The notes: generated by a model from the sequence alone, not told the origin. Shown: positions 354 to 44,712, counted from the stretch's first letter. The stretch is DNA of 64,000 nucleotides from Acidimicrobiales bacterium (GCA_039934635.1 JBDTLT010000009.1:6697-70696); one strand, 5' to 3'. Numbers and translations: made by a program.

Positions 354-1225
354 ACCATCTCCTCGATCTCTACGACTCGACGATCATGCAGCGAGCGCTC
401 ATCGAAGCCGCACTCGTCGGCGCGTTGTGCGGTGCAGTGGGTATCCACGTGTTGCTGCGCCGGCTGCCGTTCTTCACGATCACCGTGGCGCACGCGACCT
501 TCCCCGGGGTCGTCCTCGCGGTCATCCTCGGGGCCAGCGTGCTCACCGGCGCGGTGGTGTTCGCGTTGTTACTGGTGTTGGGCATCTGGCTGACCGGTGT
601 CGAAGAACGACTGGCGACATCGACTGTCGTCGGGGTCGCACTCGCCGGTTCGTTCGGCGTCGGCGCCATGTTGCAATCGACGCAGAACGGCTTCACCAAG
701 GACCTCGCGTCCATCTTGGTCGGGCAGATCATCGCCGTGCAGCGCGGCGATCTGATCGCCACCGCCATCATCGGCGGGCTCGTACTCGCGACTATGGTCT
801 CGACGCACAAAGAGCTCGTCCTGTCGGCGTTCGACCGCACCGAGGCGCAAGCGCAGGGTCATTCCCGCACGGTCGACCTGCTCGCGCTGTTGATCGTCGC
901 GGCCGCGGTCGTGACGACGGTGCCCGCGGTGGGCACGATCTTGTCGGTGGCCTTGCTGACGATCCCCGCGATGACGGCTCGGCTCGTGACGCGGCGCGTC
1001 GAGACCGCGATGGTCACGTCGGCCGCGATCGGCGCGCTCGCCGGGGTAGTCGGGCTCACGATCTCGGCTCAATGGCGGGTCGCGGCCGGTGCCGCGATCA
1101 CTCTCACCGCAGCGGGGTTGTTCTTGCTCGTGCTCCTGTTCACGACGGTGACCCGCCGTGCGACGTCAACCGAGAAGGCCGTTGTGTTCCCCGATGCGGG
1201 GCGCACGCCGGAGCTGGCTCGCTGA
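350..1225 (+). CDS. Metal ABC transporter permease, ABC-3 family (second permease of the pair)
   Basis: I trimmed ORF 167..1225 to the ATG at 350 (MNHLLDLYDSTIMQRALIEA...). The product is multi-TM and has the LLTIPAMTARLV motif, paralogous to the preceding gene. The upstream 61 codons are Arg-rich junk overlapping the previous gene. Confidence 0.85.
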   Translation: MNHLLDLYDSTIMQRALIEAALVGALCGAVGIHVLLRRLPFFTITVAHATFPGVVLAVILGASVLTGAVVFALLLVLGIWLTGVEERLATSTVVGVALAGSFGVGAMLQSTQNGFTKDLASILVGQIIAVQRGDLIATAIIGGLVLATMVSTHKELVLSAFDRTEAQAQGHSRTVDLLALLIVAAAVVTTVPAVGTILSVALLTIPAMTARLVTRRVETAMVTSAAIGALAGVVGLTISAQWRVAAGAAITLTAAGLFLLVLLFTTVTRRATSTEKAVVFPDAGRTPELAR

Positions 1226-2401
1226 CCCGTTGCAGATGAACGGCAAGCCGAGATACGTATAGGACGCCCCGAGGTCCTCGTGCTCGACCTCGACCGGGAA
1301 CCCGCGAGCGACGAAGTGGGGATCGCTCAAGACCTCTTCGGGCGAGTACACCACCGTGGCCGCGATGCCGTGGTGCTGTGCCCCCATGAAGAACTCATAC
1401 GCAGTCGAGCGTTCGGCCATGAACCGAATCGCTTCGCGGCCGGCGTTGAAGATCGCCTGCGCTTCGGGATCGGTGGCGATCTCGTTGAGTTGCACGCCCC
1501 CGCGGGCCACACCCATCTCCAAGAAGAACGCTTCGCCATACTCTTCGCGGACACCTTCGTCGTCCAACCAATCGACGAGGCGCTGATACTCGGCCGCGCT
1601 GCGCGGTGGCACGCCGCTGTGCACGGTACGGCCGTCTGCCGCCTCCGCGAACGAGCTCGTCGTCATACGCACCGACGCGTGCCGCCCGGTCTGTCGTTGC
1701 ACCGTACGTTGCGCGACGAGGTAGTCGTAGGTCGCGGCTTCGGTGGTGACGTTGACCGCCGCGTGCAGGCTCACATCGATGAATTGCCCGATCCCGGTCG
1801 CGCCACGATGCAACACCGCGGTGAGCGCAGACATCGTCGCGAAGATCGAGCCGGTCTGATAGCCCTGGTTGCCGCCGCCGCGCACCGGGGGTATCGAATG
1901 GTCGTCGTAGCCACAGCTCCACACCGGCCCGCCGCCCGCCAGCACCGTGAGATCGGTCGAGAGCTCGGACGCCCGTGGACCAGACCGCCCGAACGGCGTG
2001 ACCGACACCCAGATCATCGCCGGGTTGAGCGAGCGCAGATCGGGATAGTCGAGCGCCTTGGCGGCCAGCACGCCCGGCATCTCGGATTCGACCACGATGT
2101 CGGCCGTCGCGATCAGCGACCGCAGCGCATCGGCCCCGGCGCGGTCGTCGAGATCGATCGTCACACCAAGCTTGTTGGTGTTGTAGTGCCACCACCACAA
2201 GCTGCGTTCGGGGTCTTCGACGTCGCCGGCGAAGGGCGCCCAATGGCGCGTCTCGTGACCGCCCGGTGGTTCGACGACGATCACTTCCGCGCCGTAGATC
2301 GCCAGCAGCTTGCCCGCGAAGCAGGCGCGTGACGAGGCCAACTCCACGACGCGCAACCCGGACAACGGCCCGCCTGGCCCGGCACTCTCGCTTCGCTCCA
2401 T
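1166..2401 (-). CDS. CoA-transferase family III (CaiB/BaiF-type)
   Basis: The N-terminus LSGLRVVELASSRACFAGKLLAIYGAEVIVVEPPGG is the family-III glycine-rich fold. Its ATG shares one nt with the TGA of the upstream paralog (TGATG at 2399-2403). Confidence 0.88.
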   Translation of the reverse strand: MERSESAGPGGPLSGLRVVELASSRACFAGKLLAIYGAEVIVVEPPGGHETRHWAPFAGDVEDPERSLWWWHYNTNKLGVTIDLDDRAGADALRSLIATADIVVESEMPGVLAAKALDYPDLRSLNPAMIWVSVTPFGRSGPRASELSTDLTVLAGGGPVWSCGYDDHSIPPVRGGGNQGYQTGSIFATMSALTAVLHRGATGIGQFIDVSLHAAVNVTTEAATYDYLVAQRTVQRQTGRHASVRMTTSSFAEAADGRTVHSGVPPRSAAEYQRLVDWLDDEGVREEYGEAFFLEMGVARGGVQLNEIATDPEAQAIFNAGREAIRFMAERSTAYEFFMGAQHHGIAATVVYSPEEVLSDPHFVARGFPVEVEHEDLGASYTYLGLPFICNGSASQLRRAPRIGEHNGLLG

Positions 2402-3657
2402 CAGATGATCCCGTCGGTGCGAAGGTCGTCGATCTGCGCGGTGGTCATCCCGAGCAGTTCGCCGAAGACCTGTTCGTTGTGCTCACCGAGGCAGGGCGCG
2501 CCGCGTGCGATCACCCAATCGGTTTCGCTGAAATGCGCCGGCTCGCCGTCGACGCGCACCTCGCCCATCTCGCGGTGCTCCACGGTCGGCCAGAGCCCCC
2601 ACGCGGACGTGTTCGTGTCCGCGTCGATGCGCTCCGCCGGCTTTTGCACCGCCGAGGCCGGCACACCGACGGCTTGCAGCCGCGCCGCGAGATCGAACTT
2701 GTTCCACGAACGAGTCGCGGCGTCGATGGCGAGGTCGAGTTCGTCTTCGTGGGCGAGCCGGCCCGCGAGCGTGGCGTAGCGCGCATCGCCGCACCACGGT
2801 TGGGCCATCACTTCGGCGAAGCGCACCCAGTCGTGGTCGTCGCGACAGGACACTGCGACCCAATCGTCGTCGCCGGTGCACGCGTAGATGCCGTGGGGCG
2901 CCATCGGTGGGAACTGGCTGCGGTTCGAATTCGGCATGCCGGTGCGGCGCAGCGGGCGGCCGTTGACCGTGTAGTCGAGCACGACCGGGCCGAGCAACGC
3001 TGCCCCCGCTTCGGTGCACGACATGTCGACCCACTGCCCCTCGCCCGTGCGTTGGTGGTGCACCAGTGCGCAGAGGATCGCGATCGCCATGATGTTGCCG
3101 CCGTGGTGGTCCATGTAGCTGTAGCCCCACCCCGCAGGCGGCAGACCGGGCAATCCCGACGAGAACGTGAGCCCGCAGGCCGCTTGCACGATCGGGCCCC
3201 ACGTGCGAAAGCTGCGATACGGCCCCGTGTGACCGAACCCGCAATTCGACACGTAGATGATGTCGTCCTTGATCGCGCGCAATGCGGGGTAGTCGAAGCC
3301 CCACCGCTCGAGGACCCCCGCGGCAAAGTTCTCGCTGACGACATCGCTGATCTCGACGAGTTGGCGCAGCAACTCTTTGCCCCGATCGGTGCGCAGGTTC
3401 AGTGTGATGCCGAGCTTTTCGACGTTGTGGTTCTGGAACCCGCCGCCGAGCTCGATGCCGCGACGATCGTCCTGGAACGGCTCGTTGCCCCGCAAGATGT
3501 CCCACTTGCCTTGCCGCACCGGGTCCTCGATGCGAATCACTTGCGCGCCGAGCGCCGCGAGCCACCGCGTTGCGCCCGCACCCGCGAGTTGGCCGGTGAA
3601 GTCGCAGATGCGGATGTGCGAAAGCGCGGCCGATTTCGCGGGGGTAACCGTCGTCAT
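2401..3657 (-). CDS. CoA-transferase family III (CaiB/BaiF-type), first of a translationally coupled pair
   Basis: IRICDFTGQLAGAGATRWLAALGAQVIRIEDP and ...ENFAAGVLERWGFDYPALRAIKDDIIYVSNCGFG are typical family-III signatures. Confidence 0.88.
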   Translation of the reverse strand: MTTVTPAKSAALSHIRICDFTGQLAGAGATRWLAALGAQVIRIEDPVRQGKWDILRGNEPFQDDRRGIELGGGFQNHNVEKLGITLNLRTDRGKELLRQLVEISDVVSENFAAGVLERWGFDYPALRAIKDDIIYVSNCGFGHTGPYRSFRTWGPIVQAACGLTFSSGLPGLPPAGWGYSYMDHHGGNIMAIAILCALVHHQRTGEGQWVDMSCTEAGAALLGPVVLDYTVNGRPLRRTGMPNSNRSQFPPMAPHGIYACTGDDDWVAVSCRDDHDWVRFAEVMAQPWCGDARYATLAGRLAHEDELDLAIDAATRSWNKFDLAARLQAVGVPASAVQKPAERIDADTNTSAWGLWPTVEHREMGEVRVDGEPAHFSETDWVIARGAPCLGEHNEQVFGELLGMTTAQIDDLRTDGII

Positions 3658-3692
3658 GGGACGAACCTATTCGAAATGAGTACCGTGGTTCC

Positions 3693-4691
3693 ATGACACT
3701 CGCCGCAGAACGCCATCAGTACGACGACTACGACTCCCTGCTCGAGGACTATTTCGAAAAGGGTTGGACCGATGGGTTACCGGTCGTGCCGCCGACGCCC
3801 GAAAAAGTCGAGCACTTCCTGCGCGTCGCCGGTCTCGAACCCGACACCGAGCTGGGTGCAGTACCGACGCGCGAAGTGGTGGTGACCGCCGAGCAGGCCG
3901 CCATCAACGCAGTGATGGCCGGATGCAAGCCCGAATACTTCCCCGCGGTCGTTGCGGCAGTGCGCGCGCATCTCGATCCGATGGGCAATTGCCACTCGAC
4001 CACCGGCACGCTCTCGGGCGCGGCGCATGCGGTCATCATCAATGGACCCATCCGCAACGAGATCGGCGTGGCCAGTTACTCCGGTTGCTTCGGGCCGGGT
4101 TTCCGCGCCAACGCCACCATCGGCCGCGCGTTACGGCTCGTGATCCGCAATGTCTGTCGGGCGATTCCCGGCTTTCTCGACCGCGCATCGTTCTCGTGGC
4201 CGCTGCGTTACTCGTTCTGCTTTGGCGAGAACGAAGAAGCCAGCAACTGGACACCGATGCACGTGCAACGCGGATTCCGGCCCGACCAGAGCACCGCCAC
4301 CGTCATGTCGATCATGAAGTTCGCACCGGCGAGCGATCTCACGAGCCGTACCGCCGAGGGCATCTTGGATTCGATCGTGAAGAACGCGCGCTGGTCCGGT
4401 GTGGGCGGCGACCACTGGCTCGGTGATGACCACAACGTCATGTTCGTGTTCGGCACCGAGCATCACCGCTTCTTCATCGAAGAGGACTATTCGAAAGAGC
4501 GCATGCAGGAGTACCTGTGGCCCAAGCTCTACGCGGAGACGAGTGGTCCCAACGACCGCCGGGTGAACGTGGCCAAGCCCGAGGGCATCTTGTTGGTCGC
4601 TGCCGGCGGGCCGGGTATGGGTGAGACGTGGATGCTGATGCCGCATCTCGCCCACGCGATCATCCGCGAAATCGAACCGGCCCGGGCCTGA
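3693..4691 (+). CDS. Conserved protein of unknown function, 332 aa, several conserved-looking Cys; first gene of the selenoprotein operon
   Basis: This is a clean ATG ORF with good codon bias. Motifs are GWTDGLPVVPPT, MAGCKPEY, GNCHSTTGT and YSGCFGPGFRAN. I recognise no family. Confidence 0.8.
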   Translation: MTLAAERHQYDDYDSLLEDYFEKGWTDGLPVVPPTPEKVEHFLRVAGLEPDTELGAVPTREVVVTAEQAAINAVMAGCKPEYFPAVVAAVRAHLDPMGNCHSTTGTLSGAAHAVIINGPIRNEIGVASYSGCFGPGFRANATIGRALRLVIRNVCRAIPGFLDRASFSWPLRYSFCFGENEEASNWTPMHVQRGFRPDQSTATVMSIMKFAPASDLTSRTAEGILDSIVKNARWSGVGGDHWLGDDHNVMFVFGTEHHRFFIEEDYSKERMQEYLWPKLYAETSGPNDRRVNVAKPEGILLVAAGGPGMGETWMLMPHLAHAIIREIEPARA

Positions 4692-4769
4692 GGCACGCGG
4701 CCCGTGCGGCAAGGGAGCCTGAACGGGGAACCCTGGTAACATCAACGGACCGGCGATGGAGGTAGCACC

Positions 4770-5309
4770 ATGGCATTGATCGGACTCGATCCGACGAGTG
4801 GTCCCATCGGGGGCGACAGCGGCAAACGCCTCGCTCCCCGTCCGGTTTCGCTGGCGGGACAAGTGGTCGGGCTCGTCGCCAACGGTCTCGGCCAAGGCGA
4901 GGCGTTCCTCGACGCCCTCTACGAAGAGCTCAACAAGATCGACGATCTCCAGGGCAAGGTCAAGGTCATCAAGGGGTCGGTGTCGATCGCGCCGTATCCC
5001 GACGATTGGAAGCGCTTGACCGAAGGAGCCACCGTCGCCATCACCGGCTTCGGTGGTTGAGGCAGCTGTAGCGCCCGCAGTTTGCGGGACGCCGTCGAAC
5101 TCGAGTGGGCCGGCATTCCGTCGGTGGCCATCATTCACTACGAGATGACCGGGTCGGCCAAGGCGATCGCCCGCATCAGCGGACACGAAGACTACGACTT
5201 TGTCACGGTCGGCTATCCGCACATCCCGACCGCGGTGTGGACTGCCGACGAGGCCAAAGAGATCGCGTCGGATGTTGCGCCGCTCGTGCGCAAGCTCTTG
5301 ACTTCGTAG
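4770..5309 (+). CDS. Putative selenoprotein with a U-G-S-C redox motif (179 aa, Sec at codon 97, TGA 5058-5060); the ORF caller splits it into 4770..5060 and 5082..5309
   Basis: Both called ORFs are in the same frame. Only TGA plus 7 sense codons (GSCSARS) separate them. GGAGG lies 9-13 nt before the ATG at 4770, and the second half has no RBS or ATG. The context is ITGFGG-U-GSCS, with a hairpin 10 nt after the TGA. It resembles what I recall RefSeq naming 'UGSC family (seleno)protein'; I could not verify this. Confidence 0.72.
5071..5092 (+). promoter_or_regulatory. SECIS-like stem-loop downstream of the TGA at 5058
   Basis: The sequence gcgcccgc-AGUUU-gcggg(a)cgc gives an 8-bp stem with one bulged A and a 5-nt apical loop containing G and U. 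It starts 10 nt after the UGA, which is the spacing expected for bacterial SECIS elements. Confidence 0.6.
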
Positions 5310-5311
5310 AC

Positions 5312-5806
5312 ATGAGTGGTGACAACCTCCAACGCGAGGTGCGGTTGCTTGCCGCGCATCGTGCCATCGAGCAACAGATCTACCGCATGGGCTACGCGCT
5401 CGAGGATGGCGACTTCGAGGTCGTAGGCGAGCTGTTGCAACACGCGACATTCGGCGCCGACATGATCGGGCGCCGCGTCTTCACCGGACGTGACGAGATC
5501 CGTGGCCAGTACGAGCGCACCAACATTGTCTATCCGGGCAAAGGCCGAGCGACCCGTGAGATGTACACCAACGTCGTCATCGACATCGATCTCGATGCAT
5601 CGACGGCCCGATCAACCACGATGTACACGGTGGCACAGCAGATCCCCGACAGCGGAGCGCCGTTCGCGATGTTGGTGGCGGGGCGTTACGAAGACGAATG
5701 GGCCGTCATAGACGACGACTGGCACTGGACAGACCGCTTCATCGTCGTGCAATTCAAGAACGACCTCGACCGGCACATGCACACCGGTTCGCAGCCCTAC
5801 AACTGA
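5312..5806 (+). CDS. SnoaL-like / NTF2-fold protein
   Basis: I trimmed ORF 5105..5806 to the ATG at 5312, 2 nt after the selenoprotein stop. The product (MSGDNLQREVRLLAAHRAIEQQIYRMGYALEDGDFE...WHWTDRFIVV) matches the SnoaL_4/NTF2-like pattern. Confidence 0.7.
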   Translation: MSGDNLQREVRLLAAHRAIEQQIYRMGYALEDGDFEVVGELLQHATFGADMIGRRVFTGRDEIRGQYERTNIVYPGKGRATREMYTNVVIDIDLDASTARSTTMYTVAQQIPDSGAPFAMLVAGRYEDEWAVIDDDWHWTDRFIVVQFKNDLDRHMHTGSQPYN

Positions 5807-5807
5807 C

Positions 5808-5824
5808 CGGCAAACCGTTTGCCG
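5808..5824. terminator. Near-perfect palindrome between convergent genes; possible bidirectional terminator hairpin
   Basis: cggcaaac-c-gtttgccg has 8-bp arms. It sits in the 18-bp gap between the stops at 5806 (+) and 5825 (-). There is no clear U-tract. Confidence 0.35.
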
Positions 5825-6700
5825 TCAGACGACGTCGAGCAGTGAACCGGGTTGCAGCCCGGCGGCGCGGATCTCTTTGATGATCTGCACGAGGGCGTTG
5901 CCGTCCTGCGACTGCTCGCCGACGTGGAACAACAAGATGCCGCCCGGGACGAACGCCTTGCGGCAGATCTCGACGATCTGCGGCGCGGTCTTGCCCATCC
6001 ACCCGAGCGAGTCGACGGTCCAGAGCGCGTCGTACTTGTAGCCGAGCTGGCCGAGCAGCTTGTCGGTCTCGTTGTCGACGTCGCCGAACGGCGGCCGGAA
6101 CCACGGCTTGGACGTGACGTTTGCGCCGGCAAGGTTCTTGAACACCTGCTCGGCCTTGTCCAGCTCGGCGGTGCGAGCTTCACGATTCAGCAGCGCCGTC
6201 GACGACGAGAAGCCGGTCCACGACTTGTGGCTGTATGTGTGATTGACGAGGTGATGACCTTCGGCGACGATGCGCCGGAACATGTCGGGGTTCTGTTCGG
6301 CCCACTTGCCCGTCATGCCGAAGCTGACCTTGATCTGCTCGGCTTTGAGAGTGTCGAGAATCTGGCCCGTGAACCCGACGTCGGAACCCGCGTCGAAGGT
6401 GAGGGCGACGACCTTGCGCCCGTTGGTTCCCTTGCGCATCTGCAGCGCGGGCGCGCCGGCCGGTGGCGCAGTCGTCGTCGACGCACCGGCGACGGTGCCG
6501 ATCGGTGCGGTAGTGGCGGATGCCGCGCGCGTCGTGGCGGGCGCGGCGGTACTCGCCGTCGCTTCGACTTGACCAGAGGCCGTCGATGTCACTCCGGGCT
6601 CGTCGTCGGGCGCCGCCTGTGGGGCGCCGCCGCACGCCGTGAACACGAGTGCACACGCGACCGAGAGCGCGACGCGAGAAAGAATGCGGGGAGACGGCAC
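5825..6700 (-). CDS. Polysaccharide deacetylase (NodB/CE4 family) lipoprotein with an Ala/Thr-rich linker
   Basis: CE4 motifs are present: LTFDAGSD, HLVNHTYSH, RPPFG. The signal and lipobox read RILSRVALSVACALVFTAC. The start is set at the GTG at 6700. The called 464-aa ORF extends antisense across the SDR gene and I rejected that extension. Confidence 0.8.
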   Translation of the reverse strand: MPSPRILSRVALSVACALVFTACGGAPQAAPDDEPGVTSTASGQVEATASTAAPATTRAASATTAPIGTVAGASTTTAPPAGAPALQMRKGTNGRKVVALTFDAGSDVGFTGQILDTLKAEQIKVSFGMTGKWAEQNPDMFRRIVAEGHHLVNHTYSHKSWTGFSSSTALLNREARTAELDKAEQVFKNLAGANVTSKPWFRPPFGDVDNETDKLLGQLGYKYDALWTVDSLGWMGKTAPQIVEICRKAFVPGGILLFHVGEQSQDGNALVQIIKEIRAAGLQPGSLLDVV

Positions 6701-6782
6701 CGCGCAACAGTACCGAGACGGCCCGATAGGTGCAGAACGGGCGGCGTGACAGAATGGCCATCCATCTTCCAGGGGGCTTTCC

Positions 6783-7586
6783 ATGACCGATCCGTTCGCC
6801 GCGTACGACATGACCGGAAAGGTGGCAGTCCTCACCGGAGGGGCCAGCGGCATCGGCGAGGCGTCAGCCGAGCTCATCGCCGGCGCCGGCGGCGCGGTCG
6901 TGTTGGGCGATATCGACGAAGGTGGAGCCGAAAAGGTCGCGCAGCGCATCCGTGATGCCGGCGGTCGCGCCGTCGCCCAGCGGTGCAACGTCGCGCAAAA
7001 AGCCGACGTCGACGCGCTCATCGATCGAGGCGTGGCGGAATTCGGCAGGGTTGACGCGATGGGCAACATCGCGGGCGTGATGAACGCCGATCTCGTCATC
7101 AACATCACCGAGGCCGAGTTCGACCGCATCATCGCCATCAACATGAAGGGCGTGCTGTGGGGTTGCCAGGCTGCGCTGCGGGTGATGATGCCGCAGGGTT
7201 CGGGCAGCATCATCAACATCTCGTCCGCCGCGATCGACTATCCCAACAGCAACGTGTCGCTCTACGCCATGACCAAAGCGGCCGTGGCCATGTTGACGAT
7301 GGAACTCGCCATCGAGGCCGGCCCGCACGGCGTGAGGGTCAACTGCCTCGCACCCGGTCAGACGGCCACCAACTTCGGCCGCTATCTCCGTGAAGACGAC
7401 AAGGGTGAGATCGACCCCGACAAGTACGCCGGGTACGTGAGCCGCGGCACCAGCCTCTCGCCGATCGGCCGTCTCGGCGAAGCCATCGACCAGGCACACC
7501 TCGTGCACTATTTGGCCAGCGATGCGTCTCGCTTCGCGACCGGCGCCATCTTCCGTGTGAATGGTGGTGTGGGGATCGTCTGGTGA
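6783..7586 (+). CDS. SDR-family oxidoreductase
   Basis: The Rossmann motif is TGGASGIGEA and the YxxxK is YAMTKAAV. The stop overlaps the next start (GTGA at 7583-7586). Confidence 0.9.
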   Translation: MTDPFAAYDMTGKVAVLTGGASGIGEASAELIAGAGGAVVLGDIDEGGAEKVAQRIRDAGGRAVAQRCNVAQKADVDALIDRGVAEFGRVDAMGNIAGVMNADLVINITEAEFDRIIAINMKGVLWGCQAALRVMMPQGSGSIINISSAAIDYPNSNVSLYAMTKAAVAMLTMELAIEAGPHGVRVNCLAPGQTATNFGRYLREDDKGEIDPDKYAGYVSRGTSLSPIGRLGEAIDQAHLVHYLASDASRFATGAIFRVNGGVGIVW

Positions 7587-19306: not shown

Positions 19307-20077
19307 TCAGTCGAGCAAGCGCGGATCGTCTCGCAGTTCTTGGCGAACCATCGCTTCCCAGAACCCGATGAAGTTATCGCCTTGTGACGCAGCCATACGC
19401 TCGACGTAGGACGGCGGCAGCGCCGGGACCAGCGGATTTCCGGCGGCACGAATATGCCATCCGTGCTTGCACCGTTGTTCGAGCGCAACCGCCCGTTGAT
19501 GCACGGCCCGCGCACTGTTGCCGAGCACGAACACACCATGGCCGGCGAGTAGCGCGATCTCCGCGGACCCCATCTTTTCGACGGCCTTGCGCGCCGAGCT
19601 CGCGTCGTTGACCGCGCCGTCGTATTCGTCGACCAACACGAGCTGGCCGCCACCCAGTGACGAACTCTGATCCATCGCCGGCGGGACCTCGCCCATGTCG
19701 GCCCATACCGTGCCGAAGACGGGATGGTTGTGCATCGCCCAATGGACGCCGGGCCGCAGCTTGTGCAATTGCAGGTGCAACGGGATACCGGGCGGCACCG
19801 GCCAATCGCCTTCGATGACATTGCCTTCGAGATCTATGCGAATCACGTCGTGCGCACGGAACTCGTTCCACAACAGGTGCCACGGATTGCACAACAGAGT
19901 GCCGTCACCGAGGTTGAAGGTGATGTGCCCGGCAAGGTGATCGTTGTAGCCCTCGCGCCAGAGGGTGCGGGCCAACAACACGATCTCTTCGCGTGGCGAG
20001 AGATCGGGCATCAGCTTCTCGGAGGTGGGCTGGAACGACATCATGTCCCCCATCGTTCGGAATCCTTCATCATACAA
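19307..20077 (-). CDS. Class II aldolase/adducin-domain protein
   Basis: LARTLWREGYNDHLAGHITF, WAMHNHP and LLAGHGVFVLG are present. The exact start is uncertain; internal ATGs at 20053 and 20044 are possible. Confidence 0.8.
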   Translation of the reverse strand: MYDEGFRTMGDMMSFQPTSEKLMPDLSPREEIVLLARTLWREGYNDHLAGHITFNLGDGTLLCNPWHLLWNEFRAHDVIRIDLEGNVIEGDWPVPPGIPLHLQLHKLRPGVHWAMHNHPVFGTVWADMGEVPPAMDQSSSLGGGQLVLVDEYDGAVNDASSARKAVEKMGSAEIALLAGHGVFVLGNSARAVHQRAVALEQRCKHGWHIRAAGNPLVPALPPSYVERMAASQGDNFIGFWEAMVRQELRDDPRLLD

Positions 20078-20097
20078 TTTTCGCTTACTCTGGCCGT

Positions 20098-20925
20098 ATG
20101 CCGAATGCCGTACTCACTGTTCGTCCTGCTGCAGGCGCCCTCGGTGCCGTTGTGGAAGGAGCCGATCTGAGCCGACCCCTCGGCCCCGACGGGGTCGACC
20201 AACTGCACCAGTTGCTGCTCGAGCACCTCGTCTTGTTCTTCCCCGGCCAAGACCTCGACGACGACCAACACCTGCAGTTCTCGCTCCAATTCGGCGACTA
20301 CTACACCCATCCCATCGCGCGGGCCGCGAACCTCGGCGCCCGGGTCGGTCACATCGTCGACGACGTCGACCACCCGCCGTTTCAGGACGAGTACCACACC
20401 GACGTCAGCTGGGACTCGGTGCCGCCGACCTTCGGGGTCCTGCGCATGATCGACCGCCCGGCGCGTGGCGGCGACACGATATTCGCCAACATGTACACCG
20501 CCTACGACCGGCTTTCCGACACGATGAAGGGATGCGTCGACGGTCTGACGGCCTGGCACGACATGGGCGAGGGCAAAGCCTTTCGTAGCAAGTCGGGCAA
20601 CTCTGCCACCGACATGGCGGCCGAGCTACAACCCGGTGCCGAGCATCCGGTTGTCGGCGTGCATCCGGTGACCGGCCGGCGCTATCTCTACGTCAACCGC
20701 GGGTTCACCCGGCGCATCTGCGGTATGCACAAGAACGAAAGCGATGCGCTCGTGCGCTGCCTCGCCGACCACGCCATCAACCCCAACTTTCAGGTGCGCT
20801 GGAATTGGACGGTCGGCGACGTGGTCTTGTGGGACGAACGTTGCACCCAACACTTCGCGGTGGCCGATCACTACCCGCAGCGGCGAGAGACCGCTCGCGT
20901 CAACGTCACGTCGCCGACGCTCTGA
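20098..20925 (+). CDS. TauD/TfdA-family Fe(II)/2-oxoglutarate dioxygenase
   Basis: I trimmed ORF 19993..20925 to the ATG at 20098. The facial-triad HxD is in YHTDVSW, followed by GGDTIFANM and a distal His region (QHFAVADH). Confidence 0.85.
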   Translation: MPNAVLTVRPAAGALGAVVEGADLSRPLGPDGVDQLHQLLLEHLVLFFPGQDLDDDQHLQFSLQFGDYYTHPIARAANLGARVGHIVDDVDHPPFQDEYHTDVSWDSVPPTFGVLRMIDRPARGGDTIFANMYTAYDRLSDTMKGCVDGLTAWHDMGEGKAFRSKSGNSATDMAAELQPGAEHPVVGVHPVTGRRYLYVNRGFTRRICGMHKNESDALVRCLADHAINPNFQVRWNWTVGDVVLWDERCTQHFAVADHYPQRRETARVNVTSPTL

Positions 20926-20928
20926 GTC

Positions 20929-22128
20929 TCAGGGACTCGGTACACCGAGCAACAGAACCCGCGACGATCCGTTCGCCCACAACCCATCGGCCGATGGCCC
21001 GGTTGCGTCGCGGTTCGTACCGGTCAGATCGAACGCCGTCGTAACCGTTCCTCGCGTCACGTCGACCAGCGCCAGGCCGTCCGCGCTGATCGCCTTCGCC
21101 GACGACGCGACATAACGCAGGTAGACGAGATTGTTCACCGCGCCGGCGACAGAGGCGGATGCGAAGTCGGCCGGCAGCATCGTCTTCGCGCCGGTTGTGC
21201 CCACGAGCGCGAGCGGCTTCGCGGCTTCGACCTTGAAGCCGTCGACCGTCGTGGGGGCCGGCGCCTCCTTCATCGTCAATTGCAGCGTCGGATCGGTTGC
21301 GCCCGCCTCGAGTCGCACGAACACACCGGTCCGCTCGCTCTTCGGACGTTGGAGATCGACCAGGTATCCGTCGTCGAGCGCCGATGCATTGACCATGCGG
21401 TTGGTCGCACCGATGTCGATGGCCTCGTCCACGAACCGGAACGTCGTCAGGTCGACCGTGCGCCGGACGATGTACGGGATGCGGTCACCGTCCACCGCGC
21501 CGTCGGCGAACAAGAAGCTGAAGCGATGATCGTCCACGACCTGAAGGCTGTTGGTGAAGAGCGAATGCGACGAATCGATCGCGCTGGTCGTGTAGTAGTT
21601 CTTGCCCTTCGTGTCGTAGCTCTCGATCAGCACATCGGTGCCGACACCCTCTCGCGCGTCGTCGCCGACGTCGGCCGTCGACGCGCGCAAGGCAACGACC
21701 CAACCTGACCCGACGGCGACATGCGGCACGCCGGCGGTCGCGATCGGTCTCCACGAGGGGTCGCGGCCGACTTCCTCGACCGTCCACCCCTTGTTGACGC
21801 GCAGGTACTTCGCCGCGTCGTCTTCCATCGCGACGACGAACGGACCGCTGGTGCCATTCGTGATCGCGAGCAACACGCCGTTTTGGTTCGTGGCGGTTAC
21901 CGAACCGGCTTTGAGCGCTTCGAAGCTGCTCGACGATTTCAGCGGGACGTAGTGGCCCTTGTCGTCCCCGTCGAGGATCGGCGAGCCCAGTTCACCGCCG
22001 GGCGCCGCCGTCTCGATCGAAGGCCCCAACGATGTGTGCGCCGGATCGCCCGAGGACTCGGCCTTCTTGCCCGAACAGGCGCCGACCACGAAAACCAGTG
22101 CCATCACTGCGGCCAGTGCCCGTTTCAT
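20929..22128 (-). CDS. Lipoprotein of unknown function, 399 aa
   Basis: The signal and lipobox are MKRALAAVMALVFVVGAC. The composition looks beta-rich. It is the last gene of the minus-strand cluster 25444->20929. Confidence 0.75.
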   Translation of the reverse strand: MKRALAAVMALVFVVGACSGKKAESSGDPAHTSLGPSIETAAPGGELGSPILDGDDKGHYVPLKSSSSFEALKAGSVTATNQNGVLLAITNGTSGPFVVAMEDDAAKYLRVNKGWTVEEVGRDPSWRPIATAGVPHVAVGSGWVVALRASTADVGDDAREGVGTDVLIESYDTKGKNYYTTSAIDSSHSLFTNSLQVVDDHRFSFLFADGAVDGDRIPYIVRRTVDLTTFRFVDEAIDIGATNRMVNASALDDGYLVDLQRPKSERTGVFVRLEAGATDPTLQLTMKEAPAPTTVDGFKVEAAKPLALVGTTGAKTMLPADFASASVAGAVNNLVYLRYVASSAKAISADGLALVDVTRGTVTTAFDLTGTNRDATGPSADGLWANGSSRVLLLGVPSP

Positions 22129-30641: not shown

Positions 30642-31850
30642 ATGAATGCGACACGCAACTCAGCAGACGGACCACTCCGCGGTGTTCGCATTGTCGATTT
30701 GTCGACCGTGCTGTCCGGCCCCATGGCGACCACACTCCTCGCCGATCAGGGCGCGACCGTGATCAAGGTCGAAGCACCCGGCGCCGGCGACCTGACGCGA
30801 CAGATCTCGACGCGCAGCAACGGCGTGACGGCCATGTTCCAGGTCGCCAACCGCGGGAAACGCGCGATCACCATCGATCTGCGTCGTGAACACGGCCTGG
30901 CGGTGCTGCACAAGCTGGCCGCCGGCGCCGATGTGTTCGTGCAGAATTTCCGGCCCGGCGTCGTCGACCGCATCGGCATCGGCTACGACGCGCTGCGCGC
31001 ATTGAACCCCGAGTTGATCTATCTGTCGATCAGCGGTTTCGGATCGGTCGGCCCTCTCGCCCAGACGAAGGTGTACGACAACTTGATCCAAGCCGCGTCG
31101 GGCTTCGCGCACGGCCAAGCGGGCGCCGACGGCGCCCCCACGTTCATCAAGAACCTTGCCTGCGACAAGATCACTGCACTCACCGCCGCACAGGCGATCA
31201 GCGCGGCGCTCTACGCACGAGCAATGGGTCGCGGAGGCCAGCACATCGAGCTCGCCATGCTCGATGCGGCGGTGTGGTTCCTGTGGACCGACCGGGCAAC
31301 CGAATTCACCTGGACCGGCGAGGATGTCAAGGTGTTGCCGTCGTTGTCGCAGTACGACGTCACGCGATTCAAAGATGGATGGGGCACGATCGCCGCGGTG
31401 ACCGACGAAGAGTTCGCCGGGCTCTGTCGCGCCCTCGATGTCGCGCACATCGCCGAGGACCCTCGATTCACCACGATGACCAAGCGTCTCTCGGATCCCG
31501 ACTATCCCCGCGTCTACCGCGAGATCGTGCAAGGGGCCGCCGGCAAATTCACGATCGGCGAAGCGCTGCGCCGCCTGAGCGAAGCCAAGGTGCCCGCCGT
31601 CGCGGCCGTGGCGCTGTCGGAGATTCCGGACCATCCTCAGATCATCGCCAACGAGCTCATCGTCGCGGACGAGCATCCGCTCGCCGGTCCGCTGCAGCAA
31701 CCGCGGCCCGCGGCGCGGTTCTCCGAGACGCCGGCGGCACCCGCGGGGCCGGCCCCGGTCCCCGGACAGCACACCGACGCCATCCTCGCCGAGCTCGGCT
31801 ACAGCGCGACCGAGTGCGCCGCGTTGCGATCCGATGGCGCCGTCGCCTAA
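30642..31850 (+). CDS. CoA-transferase family III (CaiB/BaiF-type)
   Basis: LRGVRIVDLSTVLSGPMATTLLADQGATVIKVE and ...VFVQNFRPGVVDRIGIGYDAL are family-III signatures. Confidence 0.9.
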   Translation: MNATRNSADGPLRGVRIVDLSTVLSGPMATTLLADQGATVIKVEAPGAGDLTRQISTRSNGVTAMFQVANRGKRAITIDLRREHGLAVLHKLAAGADVFVQNFRPGVVDRIGIGYDALRALNPELIYLSISGFGSVGPLAQTKVYDNLIQAASGFAHGQAGADGAPTFIKNLACDKITALTAAQAISAALYARAMGRGGQHIELAMLDAAVWFLWTDRATEFTWTGEDVKVLPSLSQYDVTRFKDGWGTIAAVTDEEFAGLCRALDVAHIAEDPRFTTMTKRLSDPDYPRVYREIVQGAAGKFTIGEALRRLSEAKVPAVAAVALSEIPDHPQIIANELIVADEHPLAGPLQQPRPAARFSETPAAPAGPAPVPGQHTDAILAELGYSATECAALRSDGAVA

Positions 31851-41492: not shown

Positions 41493-43415
41493 CTACAACC
41501 TCTCCAACCGCACGGCGGTCGCCTTGAACTCGGCAGTACCGGAACGCGGATCCACAGCATCGATCGTGAGCACATTGGTGTCCACATCGTCCGAGAAGTG
41601 AAACGTCATGAAGGCGAGCCCGGCGCGCAACGCGTGGTCGACACGCGCCGGCGCCACCACTGCACCTCTACGCGAGACGACCCTTACGGATTGGCCATCG
41701 GCGATGTCGAGGCGACGCGCGTCCTCAGGCGAAAGGTCGAGGGTTTCGCCGAGCCGTAACGGCGACGCGTAGCTGCCCGACTGCACGCCGGTGTTGTAGC
41801 TGTCGAGGCGGCGACCGGTGGTCAGCCGCAGCGGGAAGTCTTCGGTGAGCTCGTCGACGGGAAGGTCGTGGGTCACCACATTGAACGGAGCGGGCCGGCC
41901 TCTACGCGTGGGATCGTCATCCCACAGCCGCCCGTGCAGGAACGACGGCTCGATTGTGTCGTCGTCGTAACACGGCCACTGAATGCCGTCCAACGCCTCG
42001 ATGCGCGCGTACGACATGCCCGCGTGAATCGGCGACAACGAGCGCACCTCGTTCCAGATGGCTTCGGCGCGCTGGCGGGGCTCGTCACCGTAACGCCAGT
42101 CGCGGCCCATTCGCGACGCGAGTTGCAACAGGACTTCGATGTCGTCGCGTGCGTTACCGGGTGGGTCGAGCGCCTTGCGCACGCGCTGTACGCGTCGCTC
42201 GCTGTTCGTCACCGTGCCTTCGCTCTCGCACCATGCTGCGGCCGCAGGAAAGACGACATCGGCCATCTCCGCGGTCTTGGTCAAGAAGATGTCCTGCACC
42301 ACCAGAGTGTCGAGGCCTTCGAGTAAGTGTCGCGCGTGGGTCACGTCGGCTTCGCTCTGCGCCGGATTCTCGCCGATGACGTACAGCGCGGTGAGGTCGC
42401 CCCGACCCATTGCCTCGAACATCTGCGTCAACGTCCAACCTGGTTTCGGCGGCACGGTGCACTCCCAGGCCTGGTCGAACTGGCCACGCAGATCCGCGTC
42501 GGTGATGTCTTGAAAGCCGGGCAGCCGCGGGGGGATGGCGCCCATGTCGCCGCCGCCCTGCACGTTGTTCTGACCGCGTAGCGGGTTGAGGCCCGAGCCG
42601 TAGCGACCGACATGGCCGCAGAGCAGCGCCAGGTTGATGAGCGCCAACACGTTCTCGACCGCGTTGTGGTGTTCGGTGATGCCGAGCGTCCAGCACAGTT
42701 GCGCGCGTGGCGCGCGGGCGTACGCGTGCGCAACCTGGCGAATCACTTCGGCGGGCACGCCGGTCTCCATCTCGCCCCGCTCGAGCGTCCACGACTCGAC
42801 CGAGCGCGCGTACGCATCGAAGTCGACGGTGGCTCGCTCGATGAAGTCACGGTGCGCAAGGCCTTGGTGGATGATCTCGCGCGCCATCGTGTTGGCCAGT
42901 GCAATGTCGGTCCCGACGTCGAGCCCGACCCAGATGTCGGCGAACTGCGCGGTCGCGGTACGCCGCGGGTCGACGACGAACAGCTGCGCGCCGTTGCGCA
43001 CCCCCGCCAGCACGTGATGGAAGAAGATCGGATGCGCCTCGCGCGCGTTGGATCCCCACAACACGATCACGTCGGTCGCTTCGATCTCTTTGTAGGACGA
43101 CGTTCCGCCACCCACTCCGAACACTGCCGCCAGACCGACGACGCTGGGAGCGTGTCAAGTTCGATTGCACGAATCGATGTTGTTCGTCCCCATCACCGCC
43201 CGGGCGAACTTCTGCGCGAGAAAGTTCATCTCGTTGGTGGCCTTCGAACAGCTGAACATGCCGAAGGCCTGCGGGCCTTTGGTGTCGAGCGCTCGGCGAA
43301 ACCCGGCAGCGGCGCGGTCGAGTGCCTCATCCCAGGTTGCCGGGCGCAGCGCGCCGTTGTCGCGCACCAGCGGCTCGGTCAGCCGTGAGTAGACCCGTGC
43401 CGGCCGTCGCGCCAT
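41493..43415 (-). CDS. Formate dehydrogenase catalytic (MopB, bis-MGD) subunit with selenocysteine at TGA 43155-43157; lacks its own N-terminal Fe-S domains; split by the ORF caller
   Basis: ORFs 43155..43604 and 41493..43124 are in the same frame. The joined sequence reads ...MGTNNIDSCNRT-U-HAPSVVGLAAVFGVGGGTSSY..., matching the FdhF-type C.R.UH.PSV active site. The C-terminus has a molybdopterin dinucleotide-binding domain. The start at the ATG at 43415 is approximate. Confidence 0.82.
43126..43142 (-). promoter_or_regulatory. SECIS-like apical stem-loop for the FDH UGA
   Basis: The mRNA reads GUCGUC-GGUCU-GGCGGC: a 6-bp stem with 2 G.U pairs and a GGUCU loop. It begins 12 nt after the UGA. 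As I recall it, the loop sequence GGUCU is the same as in the E. coli fdhF SECIS. Confidence 0.6.
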
Positions 43416-43515
43416 GGGTCCATCGTAAACCCCCGGTGGGTGCCCCAAGGCATAAGGGCCCCGTTCGACACAGTCGCTGCCGCAGAGGGCAAACTGGTGG
43501 CGACTAGGGGGAACC

Positions 43516-44712
43516 ATGGCCGACATCGAGATCCCACCGATCATCAGCGTGGACGACCACGTCGTCGAACCCCCCGACCTCTGGACGAGCCGGCTGCCCG
43601 CCAAGTACAGAGATGTCGGCCCCCACGTGGTCTACAAACCGACCGGCAAACCGATCCTCGTCGGTGGCGGCTATATCGAAGAGCCGGGTACCGAAGGCGA
43701 CCCGATCGCCTGGTGGTTCTTCGAGGACCACAAGTATTCGGTCAAGCGGCTCATCGCTGCGGCGGGGTATTCGCCCGACGAGATCGGCCTCGAGGGCGTG
43801 ACGTTCGAGGACATGCGCCCCGGCTGTTGGCAGCCAAAGGCGCGACTGGCCGACATGGACGTCAACAATGTCGAAGCGTCGCTGTGCTTTCCCAACTACC
43901 CCCGCTTCTGCGGACAGCTCTTCAAGAACGCCAAGGACAAAGACCTCGCGCTGCTGTGCGTACAGGCCTACAACGACTGGATGGTCGACGAATGGTGCGG
44001 CGACTCCAACGGTCGCCTCATCCCACTGTGCCTGATCCCGTTGTGGGATGTCGACCTCGCCGTCACGGAGATCTACCGCAATGCGGCGCGCGGCGTCCGT
44101 GCGGTGGCCTTCAGCGAATGCCCGGCCTGGATCGACCTGCCGTCGATCCACTCGGGCTACTGGGAGCCGTTCTGGGCCGCGTGCGCCGACACCGGCACCG
44201 TGCTGTGCATGCACATCGGCTCCGGCACCAAGACGATGACCACCAGTTCGGATGCACCCGAGGGCGTGACGGCTACCGGCATCTTCACCAACAGCGCGAT
44301 GTCGATGATCGACTTCTTGTTCTCGGGTGTATTGGTGCGCCATCCCGATCTCAAGCTGTTGTACGCCGAAGCGCAGATCGGTTGGATCCCCTACGTCGTC
44401 GAACGCATCGACGACATCTGGAACACCCATCGTGGATGGGCCCACGTGCGGGACAACACTCCCGAGCCACCCTCGACCTACTACTACCGGCAGATGCACA
44501 GCTGCTTCTTCAAGGACTCCGTCGGGCTCGAGCTGCTCGATCGAGTCGGTGTCGACAACATCATGTTCGAGACCGACTACCCGCACCAGGACGGCACATG
44601 GCCCAACTCCAAAGAAGTCGCGCAAAAGCTCTTCGGCCATCTCGACGCCGCCACCACACGCAAGATCGTCCGGGGTAACGCGGTGCGATTGTTCGGTCTC
44701 GACGCGAAATAA
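43516..44712 (+). CDS. Amidohydrolase-2 family protein, paralog 2
   Basis: IISVDDHVVEPPDLWTSRLPAKYRD and ...FETDYPHQDGTWP are present. It is collinear with 36963..38186. Confidence 0.87.
   Translation: MADIEIPPIISVDDHVVEPPDLWTSRLPAKYRDVGPHVVYKPTGKPILVGGGYIEEPGTEGDPIAWWFFEDHKYSVKRLIAAAGYSPDEIGLEGVTFEDMRPGCWQPKARLADMDVNNVEASLCFPNYPRFCGQLFKNAKDKDLALLCVQAYNDWMVDEWCGDSNGRLIPLCLIPLWDVDLAVTEIYRNAARGVRAVAFSECPAWIDLPSIHSGYWEPFWAACADTGTVLCMHIGSGTKTMTTSSDAPEGVTATGIFTNSAMSMIDFLFSGVLVRHPDLKLLYAEAQIGWIPYVVERIDDIWNTHRGWAHVRDNTPEPPSTYYYRQMHSCFFKDSVGLELLDRVGVDNIMFETDYPHQDGTWPNSKEVAQKLFGHLDAATTRKIVRGNAVRLFGLDAK

What the first reader, a model, noticed from the sequence alone, without database searches (positions are those of the whole stretch)
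4770..5309. In-frame TGA joins two called ORFs into one U-G-S-C selenoprotein, with a SECIS-like hairpin at the canonical spacing
- ORFs 4770..5060 and 5082..5309 share a frame. Only TGA (5058-5060) plus seven sense codons separate them.
- The first half has a strong GGAGG RBS and an ATG. The second half has neither; its 'start' is an internal TTG.
- Read through, the junction is ITGFGG-U-GSC-SARS. This is a U-x-x-C motif, analogous to the CxxC of thiol-disulfide redox proteins.
- Ten nt after the UGA lies the hairpin gcgcccgc-AGUUU-gcggg(a)cgc (5071-5092).
- A second, independent TGA-Sec gene (the FDH at 43155) in the same window makes Sec decoding in this organism credible.
- I recall RefSeq using the label 'UGSC family (seleno)protein', so the family may be catalogued. 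To my knowledge its function is unknown, and standard gene callers would truncate or split it here.
Basis: partly seen in the sequence, partly recalled or inferred. Interest (0 to 1): 0.75.

Follow-up and report, generated by a model that had tools for sequence, protein, structure and literature searches.

The report
Mis-split UGSC selenoprotein gene
The two short ORFs are one gene for a selenocysteine-containing protein of the already catalogued but functionally unknown "UGSC" family, which the public annotation cut in half at the UGA codon; it sits beside a conserved, unnamed partner gene.

Summary
ORFs 4770-5060 and 5082-5309 share a frame, and reading through TGA 5058-5060 gives a 179-aa protein. 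It matches Pfam PF24696 "UGSC family" end to end (128.5 bits, cutoff 25). Cys homologs carry CGSC at the same column and continue past it.

About 47 distinct relatives from metagenomes keep the TGA and stay coding after it. They also keep the hairpin at 5071-5092, and one stem pair covaries at synonymous sites (G-C 31, C-G 13, A-U 3, no mismatch). In 41 Cys-form loci the same hairpin decays. The loop G and U sit at nt 23-24 after the UGA, as in E. coli fdhF and in the window's own Sec-type formate dehydrogenase.

The family has been known since 2007-2008 and its function is still unknown, so this is a new, mis-annotated member of a known kind. GenBank calls the N-terminal half "hypothetical protein" MEO8692644.1, in an Acidimicrobiales MAG.

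Added here: a 332-aa neighbour with no Pfam family is almost always adjacent or fused to UGSC. Other relatives fuse UGSC to a thioredoxin-reductase-like or a NifU-like domain. The predicted fold is flavodoxin-like, not thioredoxin-like. Sec-insertion genes could not be checked, because none lie in the window.

The parts
4770..5309 (+). Complete UGSC-family selenoprotein CDS (179 aa, Sec at residue 97, stop TAG 5307-5309)
   Evidence: Translation. PF24696 at 128.5 bits covers residues 7-178. Homologs run full length.
4758..4762 (+). GGAGG ribosome-binding site, 7 nt before the ATG at 4770
   Evidence: Read directly from the sequence.
5058..5060 (+). In-frame UGA read as selenocysteine (U97); aligned column is invariant Cys in Cys-type homologs
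   Evidence: TGA is conserved in 47 unique relatives.
5067..5069 (+). TGT codon for Cys100, the C of the U-G-S-C motif (invariant in the family)
   Evidence: Invariant column C100 in alignments A1 and A2.
5071..5092 (+). SECIS hairpin: 5' arm 5071-5078, loop AGUUU 5079-5083 (G23 = 5080, U24 = 5081), 3' arm 5084-5088, bulged A 5089, 5090-5092
   Evidence: Fold. 95.6% of cells pair, against 11-66% for slid controls. Pair 18/30 shows GC/CG/AU covariation with no mismatch. The hairpin is lost in Cys forms. Its register matches E. coli fdhF.
5082..5309 (+). Spurious 'second ORF': its TTG 'start' is the Leu105 codon inside the SECIS loop
   Evidence: Relatives are split the same way into pieces of 97-111 aa and 62-83 aa, both hitting PF24696.
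3693..4691 (+). Conserved 332-aa partner gene (no Pfam, NCBIfam or PDB relative), same strand, 78 nt upstream; ends in TGA used as a stop
   Evidence: It is adjacent to UGSC in nearly all related loci and fused to UGSC in P0082, P0291, P0302, P0384 and P0400.
5312..5806 (+). SnoaL-like gene starting 2 nt after the UGSC stop; probably co-transcribed (context only)
   Evidence: PF13577. The same neighbour occurs in L046. No terminator-like site lies on the + strand across 3400-6000.
41493..43604 (-). Second Sec-type gene in the window: formate dehydrogenase alpha, UGA at 43157-43155 (SCNRT-U-HAPSV), hairpin 43152-43113 with loop GGUCU at 43136-43132

Best explanation
One gene (4770-5309) encodes a 179-aa selenoprotein of the UGSC family. 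During translation, the UGA at 5058-5060 is recoded to selenocysteine. The mRNA hairpin at 5071-5092 presents G23/U24 in its apical loop, in the same register as the E. coli fdhF SECIS. It is inferred to recruit SelB carrying Sec-tRNA(Sec) to the ribosome. The product is a compact alpha/beta domain predicted as five beta-alpha units. Sec97 and Cys100 (U-G-S-C) sit at the end of strand 3 and the start of helix 3, where they can cycle between a selenol/thiol and a selenenylsulfide. It most likely works as the redox-active subunit of a two-gene module with the 332-aa protein encoded just upstream. It would either pass reducing equivalents to that partner or act as the nucleophile on a substrate the partner binds. 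Shown here: family membership, conservation of the UGA, the coding signal after it, hairpin covariation, and partner adjacency and fusions. Inferred: actual Sec insertion in this organism, the redox chemistry, and the physical complex with the partner.
For: Family: PF24696 at 128.5 bits against a cutoff of 25. U97 aligns with an invariant Cys in CGSC.

Readthrough: 47 unique relatives keep TGA followed by GSCSARS[LM]RDA. Substitutions downstream of the TGA are biased to codon position 3 (930/702/1588), as they are upstream (879/640/1190).

SECIS: the six core stem pairs pair in 47/47 Sec forms. Pair 18/30, at the synonymous third positions of an Ala and an Arg codon, is GC 31, CG 13, AU 3. In 41 Cys-form loci three core pairs hold in only 14-20 of 41, and mean hairpin stability falls from -12.0 to -6.3 kcal/mol. 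In the formal count 95.6% of cells pair, and 0 of 500 shuffles reach the observed covariation score.

Register: GU lies at nt 23-24 in E. coli fdhF, in the window's FDH and in UGSC. A second Sec-type gene, the FDH, has its UGA at the canonical active-site position. TGA is otherwise the commonest stop in the window, and it ends the partner gene.

Redox module: the partner is present beside UGSC in 42 of 45 Cys-form loci (the other three end at a contig edge) and in nearly all Sec-form loci. Three reverse look-ups starting from partner homologs each found a split UGSC gene next door. UGSC-partner fusions exist. There is also a UGSC fusion to a thioredoxin-reductase-like flavoprotein and fusions or adjacency to a NifU-like CxxC domain. 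The model has pLDDT 93 with U/C97 at the strand-to-helix junction.
Against: No selA, selB, selD or tRNA-Sec lies in the 64-kb window, so the Sec machinery of this MAG is unverified. No Rfam family matches the hairpin. The hairpin alone is not statistically unusual in this GC-rich sequence. The protein scores below the NCBIfam NF041046 equivalog cutoff. Covariation rests on a single variable pair, because the other stem positions are invariant and could be held by the protein sequence. The structure was predicted for a 56%-identical Cys homolog, not for the window protein. No biochemical data exist for any family member. The partner's fold matches nothing solved, so the chemistry is open.
Confidence: 0.88

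Rival explanations
1. The TGA is a genuine stop. The locus is a pseudogene, a nonsense mutation or an assembly error, or it holds two independent small genes with re-initiation at TTG 5082.
For: The public annotation calls only the 96-aa N-terminal ORF. TGA is the commonest stop codon in the window. No Sec machinery is seen in the window.
Against: The same TGA recurs in 47 unique sequences from many independent metagenomes. The region after it evolves as coding sequence in the same frame. Both halves hit one Pfam domain, and full-length Cys homologs exist. TTG 5082 has no RBS and lies inside the conserved hairpin loop.
Confidence: 0.03
2. The UGA is read through, but not as selenocysteine. For example, Cys could be inserted via SelB/tRNA(Sec) mischarging, or Trp/Cys by near-cognate suppression, if this organism has lost selenium utilisation.
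For: The Sec machinery is unverified for this MAG. Cys works at this position in many homologs.
Against: A SelB-type hairpin with GU at nt 23-24 is maintained by compensatory changes only in the TGA-bearing forms. A second gene in the window, the FDH, uses UGA at the classic Sec site with an fdhF-like GGUCUG loop. Neither would be maintained without a working Sec system.
Confidence: 0.05
3. The active-site loop U-G-S-C-S-A-R-S is a C-X5-R-(S/T) oxyanion-binding P-loop, as in low-molecular-weight tyrosine phosphatases and ArsC arsenate reductases. The protein would then be a (seleno)cysteine phosphatase or oxyanion reductase, not a dithiol redox carrier.
For: R103 is invariant and lies exactly six residues after U/C97, between a strand and a helix. 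Two of 90 members give a faint Ssu72 hit at E = 0.25.
Against: hhalign of the family profile against E. coli Wzb gives 0.5% probability. No PTP or ArsC structure appears among the top 50 Foldseek matches. The fusion to a TrxR-like flavoprotein and the invariant second Cys at +3 fit dithiol/selenenylsulfide chemistry at least as well.
Confidence: 0.08

Closest known systems
UGSC-containing selenoprotein family (Pfam PF24696; NCBIfam NF041046; Zhang & Gladyshev, PMC1976440 and PMC2398784)
   Same: It shares the full-length domain match, the U-G-S-C motif at the same column, the existence of Cys (CGSC) homologs, a SECIS right after the UGA, and systematic mis-annotation. The reported fusion to an unnamed domain ('Unknown_1') probably corresponds to the partner found here.
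   Different: It scores below the NCBIfam equivalog cutoff (79.6 against 125 bits). It belongs to an Acidimicrobiales/Actinomycetota-centred Sec clade with the junction ITGFGG-U-GSCSARSLRDA. The published guess of a thioredoxin-like fold is not supported by the AlphaFold model.
E. coli fdhF-type bacterial SECIS (SelB-binding hairpin)
   Same: The hairpin lies immediately 3' of the UGA inside the coding sequence. GU sits at nt 23-24 of the apical loop, in an identical register. The core stem starts 10-12 nt after the UGA.
   Different: The loop is AGUUU, not GGUCU. The bulge is an A on the 3' arm (nt 32); my recollection, not tested here, is that fdhF has a bulged U on the 5' arm. No Rfam model matches.
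Thioredoxin-fold CxxC/UxxC thiol-disulfide oxidoreductases (Trx, Grx, DsbA, Prx-like selenoproteins)
   Same: The UxxC motif sits at the N-terminus of a helix. One family member is fused to a thioredoxin-reductase-like flavoprotein, as Trx domains are in some reductase fusions.
   Different: The predicted topology is five beta-alpha units. The best PDB matches are flavodoxin-like folds (TIR, azoreductase, lumazine synthase) at TM 0.4-0.5, with no Trx-fold protein in the top 50. hhalign against TrxA gives 0.6%.
Selenoprotein subunits of Stickland reductases (PrdB, GrdB, GrdA)
   Same: These are small Sec-containing subunits that act together with a separate catalytic or substrate-binding subunit encoded next door (my knowledge of those systems). 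PrdB is listed with a UxxC motif in PMC2398784 Table 2.
   Different: No sequence similarity was detected: no GRDB or other Stickland family appears among the Pfam hits of 90 members. The genomic context is aerobic-type catabolic genes (CoA-transferase, SDR, P450, luciferase-like), not Stickland operons.

Membership tests
UGSC family (Pfam PF24696) | Domain match above Pfam's gathering score over the whole domain | tested here: met
   128.5 bits against a cutoff of 25; residues 7-178 match profile positions 4-171 of 172.
UGSC family (NCBIfam NF041046, equivalog) | Score at or above the curated equivalog cutoff (125 bits) | tested here: not met
   79.6 bits, E = 2.3e-22, residues 30-178. It is related, but NCBI's pipeline would not name it from this model.
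UGSC family | U/C-G-S-C motif at the conserved column, with Cys-containing homologs that continue past it | tested here: met
   G95 G96 C97 G98 S99 C100 are invariant in 20 and in 90 homologs, and U97 aligns to C97.
Bacterial selenoprotein gene | In-frame UGA conserved across orthologs, with coding constraint continuing downstream | tested here: met
   47 unique TGA junctions. Third-position substitution bias holds after the TGA.
Bacterial selenoprotein gene | SECIS hairpin directly 3' of the UGA, supported by covariation and absent from Cys forms | tested here: met
   95.6% of cells pair. Pair 18/30 is GC/CG/AU with no mismatch. In Cys forms three core pairs hold in only 14-20 of 41.
Bacterial selenoprotein gene | Apical-loop G and U at nt 23-24 from the UGA, as in E. 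coli fdhF | tested here: met
   G23 and U24 are invariant in 47/47. The register is the same in E. coli fdhF and in the window's FDH.
Bacterial selenoprotein gene | Genome encodes SelA, SelB, SelD and tRNA-Sec | tested here: inconclusive
   None are in the 64-kb window (ARAGORN; tblastn with E. coli SelA/B/D). The Sec-type FDH in the window is indirect support.
Bacterial selenoprotein gene | Selenium actually incorporated into the protein | not testable with these tools
   This needs 75Se labelling or mass spectrometry.
Thioredoxin-fold oxidoreductases | Thioredoxin fold (mixed sheet, beta-alpha-beta-alpha-beta-beta-alpha) carrying the CxxC motif | tested here: not met
C-X5-R phosphatase / ArsC superfamily | Homology or fold match to LMW-PTP/ArsC beyond the short motif | tested here: not met
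   hhalign against E. coli Wzb gives 0.5%. No such structure is in the Foldseek top 50.

The most novel reading that the evidence does not exclude
UGSC is not a stand-alone redoxin. It would be the (seleno)cysteine subunit of a widespread, entirely uncharacterised multi-component enzyme. The catalytic subunit would be the roughly 330-aa partner family, which has at least 7,979 database clusters, no Pfam or NCBIfam model and no structural relative. The system would often include a NifU-like CxxC protein and be fed by a thioredoxin-reductase-like flavoprotein. That would make it a new selenoenzyme system, common in soil, freshwater and marine Actinomycetota.
Probability: 0.45. Interest if true: 0.6.

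Novelty: new member of a known kind. Interest (0 to 1): 0.33.

Why it matters
For annotation, this is a clean worked example of a selenoprotein gene that public pipelines split. The GenBank record has a 96-aa "hypothetical protein", and every Sec-form relative examined is cut the same way, which hides the family's true abundance.

[quoted passage not shown] Three findings turn "unknown redox protein" into a testable hypothesis about a two- or three-component enzyme:
- UGSC travels with, and is sometimes fused to, one specific unannotated 330-aa protein.
- It is sometimes fused to a thioredoxin-reductase-like or NifU-like domain.
- Its predicted fold is not thioredoxin-like.

The SECIS also visibly shapes the protein. 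Sec forms read S-A-R-S-L where Cys forms read S-T-R-S-M, because G16 must pair with C33.

Tried and rejected
- Rfam gathering-threshold scan of the whole window found no family, so there was no SECIS model hit.
- ARAGORN found no tRNA or tRNA-Sec in the window.
- tblastn with E. coli SelA, SelB and SelD against the window and all fetched loci found nothing below E = 0.3.
- Single-sequence folding z-scores were not significant for either the UGSC or the FDH hairpin.
- PDB sequence searches with the UGSC profile and with the partner found no hits.
- Foldseek of the partner model found nothing significant. The top hits were Toblerone-fold amidohydrolases and YjgF, with probability below 0.35 and TM about 0.2.
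- Weak-hit Pfam scans of 60 partner and 90 UGSC sequences gave no consistent second family.
- The C-X5-R phosphatase/ArsC idea and thioredoxin homology were tested by hhalign; both were null.
- The genome-contig scan chose a Cys-containing pattern, so it returned only Cys forms. Sec forms had to be recovered through truncated proteins and a DNA pattern.
- Figure S1 of PMC2398784 ('Unknown_1') is held only as an image, so its identity with the partner could not be confirmed.
- A third UGA-plus-hairpin site at 20931 (-) proved to be an ordinary stop codon.
- My first structure string for the pair count misplaced the bulge; it was corrected.
- P0353 (UGSC + TetR) looks like a read-through artefact and was ignored.

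Full report
**1. What is in the sequence**

- An ATG at 4770 is preceded by GGAGG at 4758-4762.
- The frame runs to TGA at 5058-5060.
- It continues through seven sense codons (G S C S A R S) to the TTG at 5082, which a mechanical ORF list treats as a start, and ends at TAG 5307-5309.
- Read through, the product is 179 aa with the junction ITGFGG-U-GSC-SARS.
- The hairpin GCGCCCGC-AGUUU-GCGGG(A)CGC occupies 5071-5092.
- On the minus strand, a formate dehydrogenase alpha subunit has TGA at 43157-43155 within SCNRT-U-HAPSV, the classic Sec/Cys active-site position. It carries the Molybdopterin and Molydop_binding domains.

**2. Family**

With C substituted for U, the joined protein matches Pfam PF24696 "UGSC family" over essentially its whole length (128.5 bits, cutoff 25). 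It also matches NCBIfam NF041046 "UGSC family (seleno)protein", but at 79.6 bits, below that equivalog's cutoff of 125.

The family was described by Zhang and Gladyshev. It is first mentioned in 2007 (PMC1976440). In 2008 it was reported as one of the most abundant selenoprotein families of the Global Ocean Sampling data, with 255 Sec forms against 21 Cys forms, "likely" a thioredoxin-like fold, and one fusion to an unnamed domain "Unknown_1" (PMC2398784). Reviews from 2022 and 2026 still list it as uncharacterised. So the family is known and its function is not.

**3. Is the UGA decoded?**

*Homologs.* A search of 5.8 billion proteins found many full-length homologs of about 179 aa carrying TGFGG-C-GSC-S(T/S)RS at the aligned position. 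It also found a set of hits of about 98-111 aa that all end exactly at ...ITGFGG. Fetching the DNA for five of those truncated proteins showed TGA in every case, followed in frame by GSCSARSLRDA... to a stop about 80 codons later. Gene callers had split each gene into two pieces, and both pieces hit PF24696.

*More Sec forms.* A metagenome scan used a pattern covering only F-G-G-TGA-G-S-C, so it did not presuppose the hairpin. It added about 45 more genuine members, giving 47 unique 60-nt junctions including the window.

*Coding signal.* Relative to the window, substitutions in the 78 codons after the TGA fall at codon positions 1/2/3 as 930/702/1588. For the 60 codons before it the counts are 879/640/1190. 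The second half therefore evolves as coding sequence in this frame.

*TGA as a stop.* TGA is otherwise the commonest stop in the window, and it terminates the partner gene itself. A reassigned genetic code is therefore not the explanation.

**4. The hairpin**

I number from the U of UGA as 1 (window 5058).
- The conserved core is G16-C33, a bulged A32, C17-G31, N18-N30, C19-G29, G20-C28 and C21-G27, with loop A22 G23 U24 N25 U26.
- In the 47 unique Sec forms, every core pair forms in 47/47.
- Pair 18/30 joins the synonymous third positions of an Ala (GCN) codon and an Arg (CGN) codon. It occurs as G-C (31), C-G (13) and A-U (3), with no mismatch.
- A formal count on 40 distinct rows gives 95.6% of cells paired, against 11-66% when the 3' arm is slid by 1-3 columns. 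No shuffle (0 of 500) reaches the observed covariation score.

The control is the 41 unique Cys-form loci from genomes. There, pairs 16/33, 18/30 and 21/27 hold in only 17, 20 and 14 of 41, and mean stability of nt 13-37 falls from -12.0 to -6.3 kcal/mol. The structure is therefore maintained specifically where there is a UGA.

It also shapes the protein. Sec forms read S-A-R-S-L where Cys forms read S-T-R-S-M, because G16 (the Ala codon) must pair with C33.

Direct comparison with E. coli fdhF, fetched here, shows GGUCUG at nt 22-27 in fdhF and in the window's FDH, and AGUUUG in UGSC. GU therefore sits at nt 23-24 in all three. From my own knowledge of the SelB-SECIS literature, G23 and U24 are the main SelB contacts.

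Honest caveats:
- Covariation rests on one variable pair.
- The hairpin alone is unremarkable in this GC-rich DNA (z = -0.5).
- A combined rule (open frame on both sides, GU at 23-24, stem of at least 5 bp) finds three sites in the window when 1.6 are expected by chance. These are the UGSC site, the FDH site, and an ordinary stop at 20931.

**5. What could not be shown**

The exact-sequence look-up identifies the source as an NCBI MAG, "Acidimicrobiales bacterium", on a 72-kb contig. There the N-terminal 96 aa is annotated as hypothetical protein MEO8692644.1 (ABI658_03955). This confirms that the annotation truncates the gene.

**6. The protein**

I therefore modelled the 56%-identical Cys homolog P0001 with a 90-sequence alignment. 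The result is confident: pLDDT 93.2 and pTM 0.87. It has five beta-alpha units, and residue 97 sits at the end of strand 3 and the start of helix 3.

Foldseek against the PDB returns only weak matches (TM 0.4-0.5). These are flavodoxin-like and related three-layer folds: TIR domains, azoreductase, lumazine synthase and small GTPases. No thioredoxin-fold protein is in the top 50. Profile comparisons with E. coli TrxA and with the LMW-PTP Wzb are null. I made the Wzb comparison because U-GSCSA-R-S also fits C-X5-R-S. The 2008 suggestion of a thioredoxin-like fold is thus not supported, although the UxxC motif at a helix N-terminus remains compatible with selenenylsulfide redox chemistry.

**7. 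Context: a conserved module**

*The partner.* The 332-aa gene at 3693-4691 lies on the same strand, 78 nt upstream. It has no Pfam, NCBIfam or PDB relative. Yet it belongs to a very large family: at least 7,979 clusters, all named "hypothetical".

*Adjacency.*
- tblastn finds the partner beside UGSC in 42 of 45 Cys-form loci. The other three end at a contig edge. In most of these loci it lies immediately downstream of UGSC.
- In nearly all Sec-form loci it lies immediately upstream.
- The apparent exception, L046, has the partner 1.8 kb away on the other strand.
- Only one short contig (L102) shows none.
- Starting instead from three partner homologs, each has a split UGSC gene next door, including one in a "Deltaproteobacteria" MAG.

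*Fusions.* A profile search of 1.84 billion representatives finds 1,475 family members. Among them are four UGSC-partner fusions of 549-630 aa, whose partner domain is 34-41% identical to the window's (E <= 1e-56). There is also a UGSC fusion to a pyridine-nucleotide-disulfide oxidoreductase with a CGTCDG motif, and fusions to a small CxxC domain. P0082 is a further fusion: it joins the partner's C-terminal region to UGSC.

*A third component.* That small domain corresponds to a NifU-like gene of about 80 aa (PF01106 above threshold in L048). It flanks the pair in 40 fetched loci, but it is absent from the window.

*Partner structure.* The partner model (pLDDT 83.5) matches nothing solved.

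*Wider neighbourhood.* Beyond the module, neighbouring genes vary but are dominated by catabolic enzymes: CoA-transferase III, SDR, P450, luciferase-like, enoyl-CoA hydratase and amidohydrolase.

**8. Interpretation**

The best-supported reading has two parts. First, SECIS-directed Sec insertion at 5058-5060 yields a 179-aa UGSC selenoprotein. Second, this protein acts as the redox-active (U97/C100) subunit of a module with the adjacent 332-aa protein, probably reduced through a thioredoxin-reductase-type system. The recoding part is well supported by comparative data. The protein chemistry and the complex are inferences from gene order, fusions and a predicted structure.

**9. Verdict**

But the family is already catalogued, so this is a new, mis-annotated member of a known kind, and I score it modestly. 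The residual interest lies in the unexplored partner family and in the module architecture.

Noticed in passing
window 3693-4691 (+): The 332-aa protein belongs to a very large family (at least 7,979 clusters at 90% identity). It has no Pfam or NCBIfam model, no PDB sequence relative and no significant Foldseek match. It has many invariant Cys, His and Arg residues (C155, C176, H101, R138, R145 and others). It is almost always next to, or fused with, UGSC.
   Followed up: partly
L048:8570-8812, L052:6565-6804 and about 38 other fetched loci; proteins P0291, P0292: A NifU-like CxxC protein of about 80 aa flanks the UGSC/partner pair in 40 fetched loci. It is fused to UGSC in P0292 and to UGSC plus partner in P0291. 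The window has no copy.
   Followed up: partly
protein P0381 (502 aa, from the representative search): A UGSC domain is fused to a thioredoxin-reductase-like flavoprotein (Pyr_redox_2, CGTCDG motif). This hints at how UGSC is reduced.
   Followed up: partly
window 41493-43604 (-): The Sec-type formate dehydrogenase alpha subunit (UGA 43157-43155, fdhF-like GGUCUG loop) appears to lack the N-terminal CxxCxxxC 4Fe-4S domain in every frame. Its 5' region overlaps the start of a divergent Amidohydro_2 ORF (43516-44712). A fused NuoE/NuoF-like gene (39648-41492) follows it.
   Followed up: partly
window 20887-20931 (-): The TGA at 20931-20929 is followed by a 9-bp stem with GU at nt 23-24 and 100 open codons. 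It is the ordinary stop of a 399-aa lipoprotein-like ORF (20929-22128). The open frame after it is antisense to a convergent TauD-like gene (19993-20925).
   Followed up: yes
L046:10386-11373 (-) relative to UGSC at L046:8046-8582 (+): In the closest relative of the window's UGSC (about 80% identity over the full length), the partner gene is not adjacent. It lies 1.8 kb downstream on the opposite strand, in frameshifted pieces, still paired with a CoA-transferase III gene as in the window. This looks like a local inversion. A polysaccharide deacetylase gene sits upstream of UGSC there; the window has a similar gene at 5825-7219 (-).
   Followed up: partly
L001-L045 versus L046-L175: Gene order correlates with the Sec/Cys state. 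Most Cys-form loci are UGSC then partner, while Sec-form loci are partner then UGSC. The few Cys forms with the partner upstream (L004, L009, L037, L039) have 'ELE'/'DLE' sequences closer to the Sec forms. The Sec forms fall in one clade of a quick NJ tree, but the sampling was pattern-biased.
   Followed up: partly
window 2401-3657 (-), 1181-2365 (-), 30675-31844 (+): There are three CoA-transferase family III paralogs in the window. One is divergently transcribed from the partner gene. A family III CoA-transferase lies within about 6 kb of UGSC in roughly 20 of the related loci, which may be more than background.
   Followed up: no
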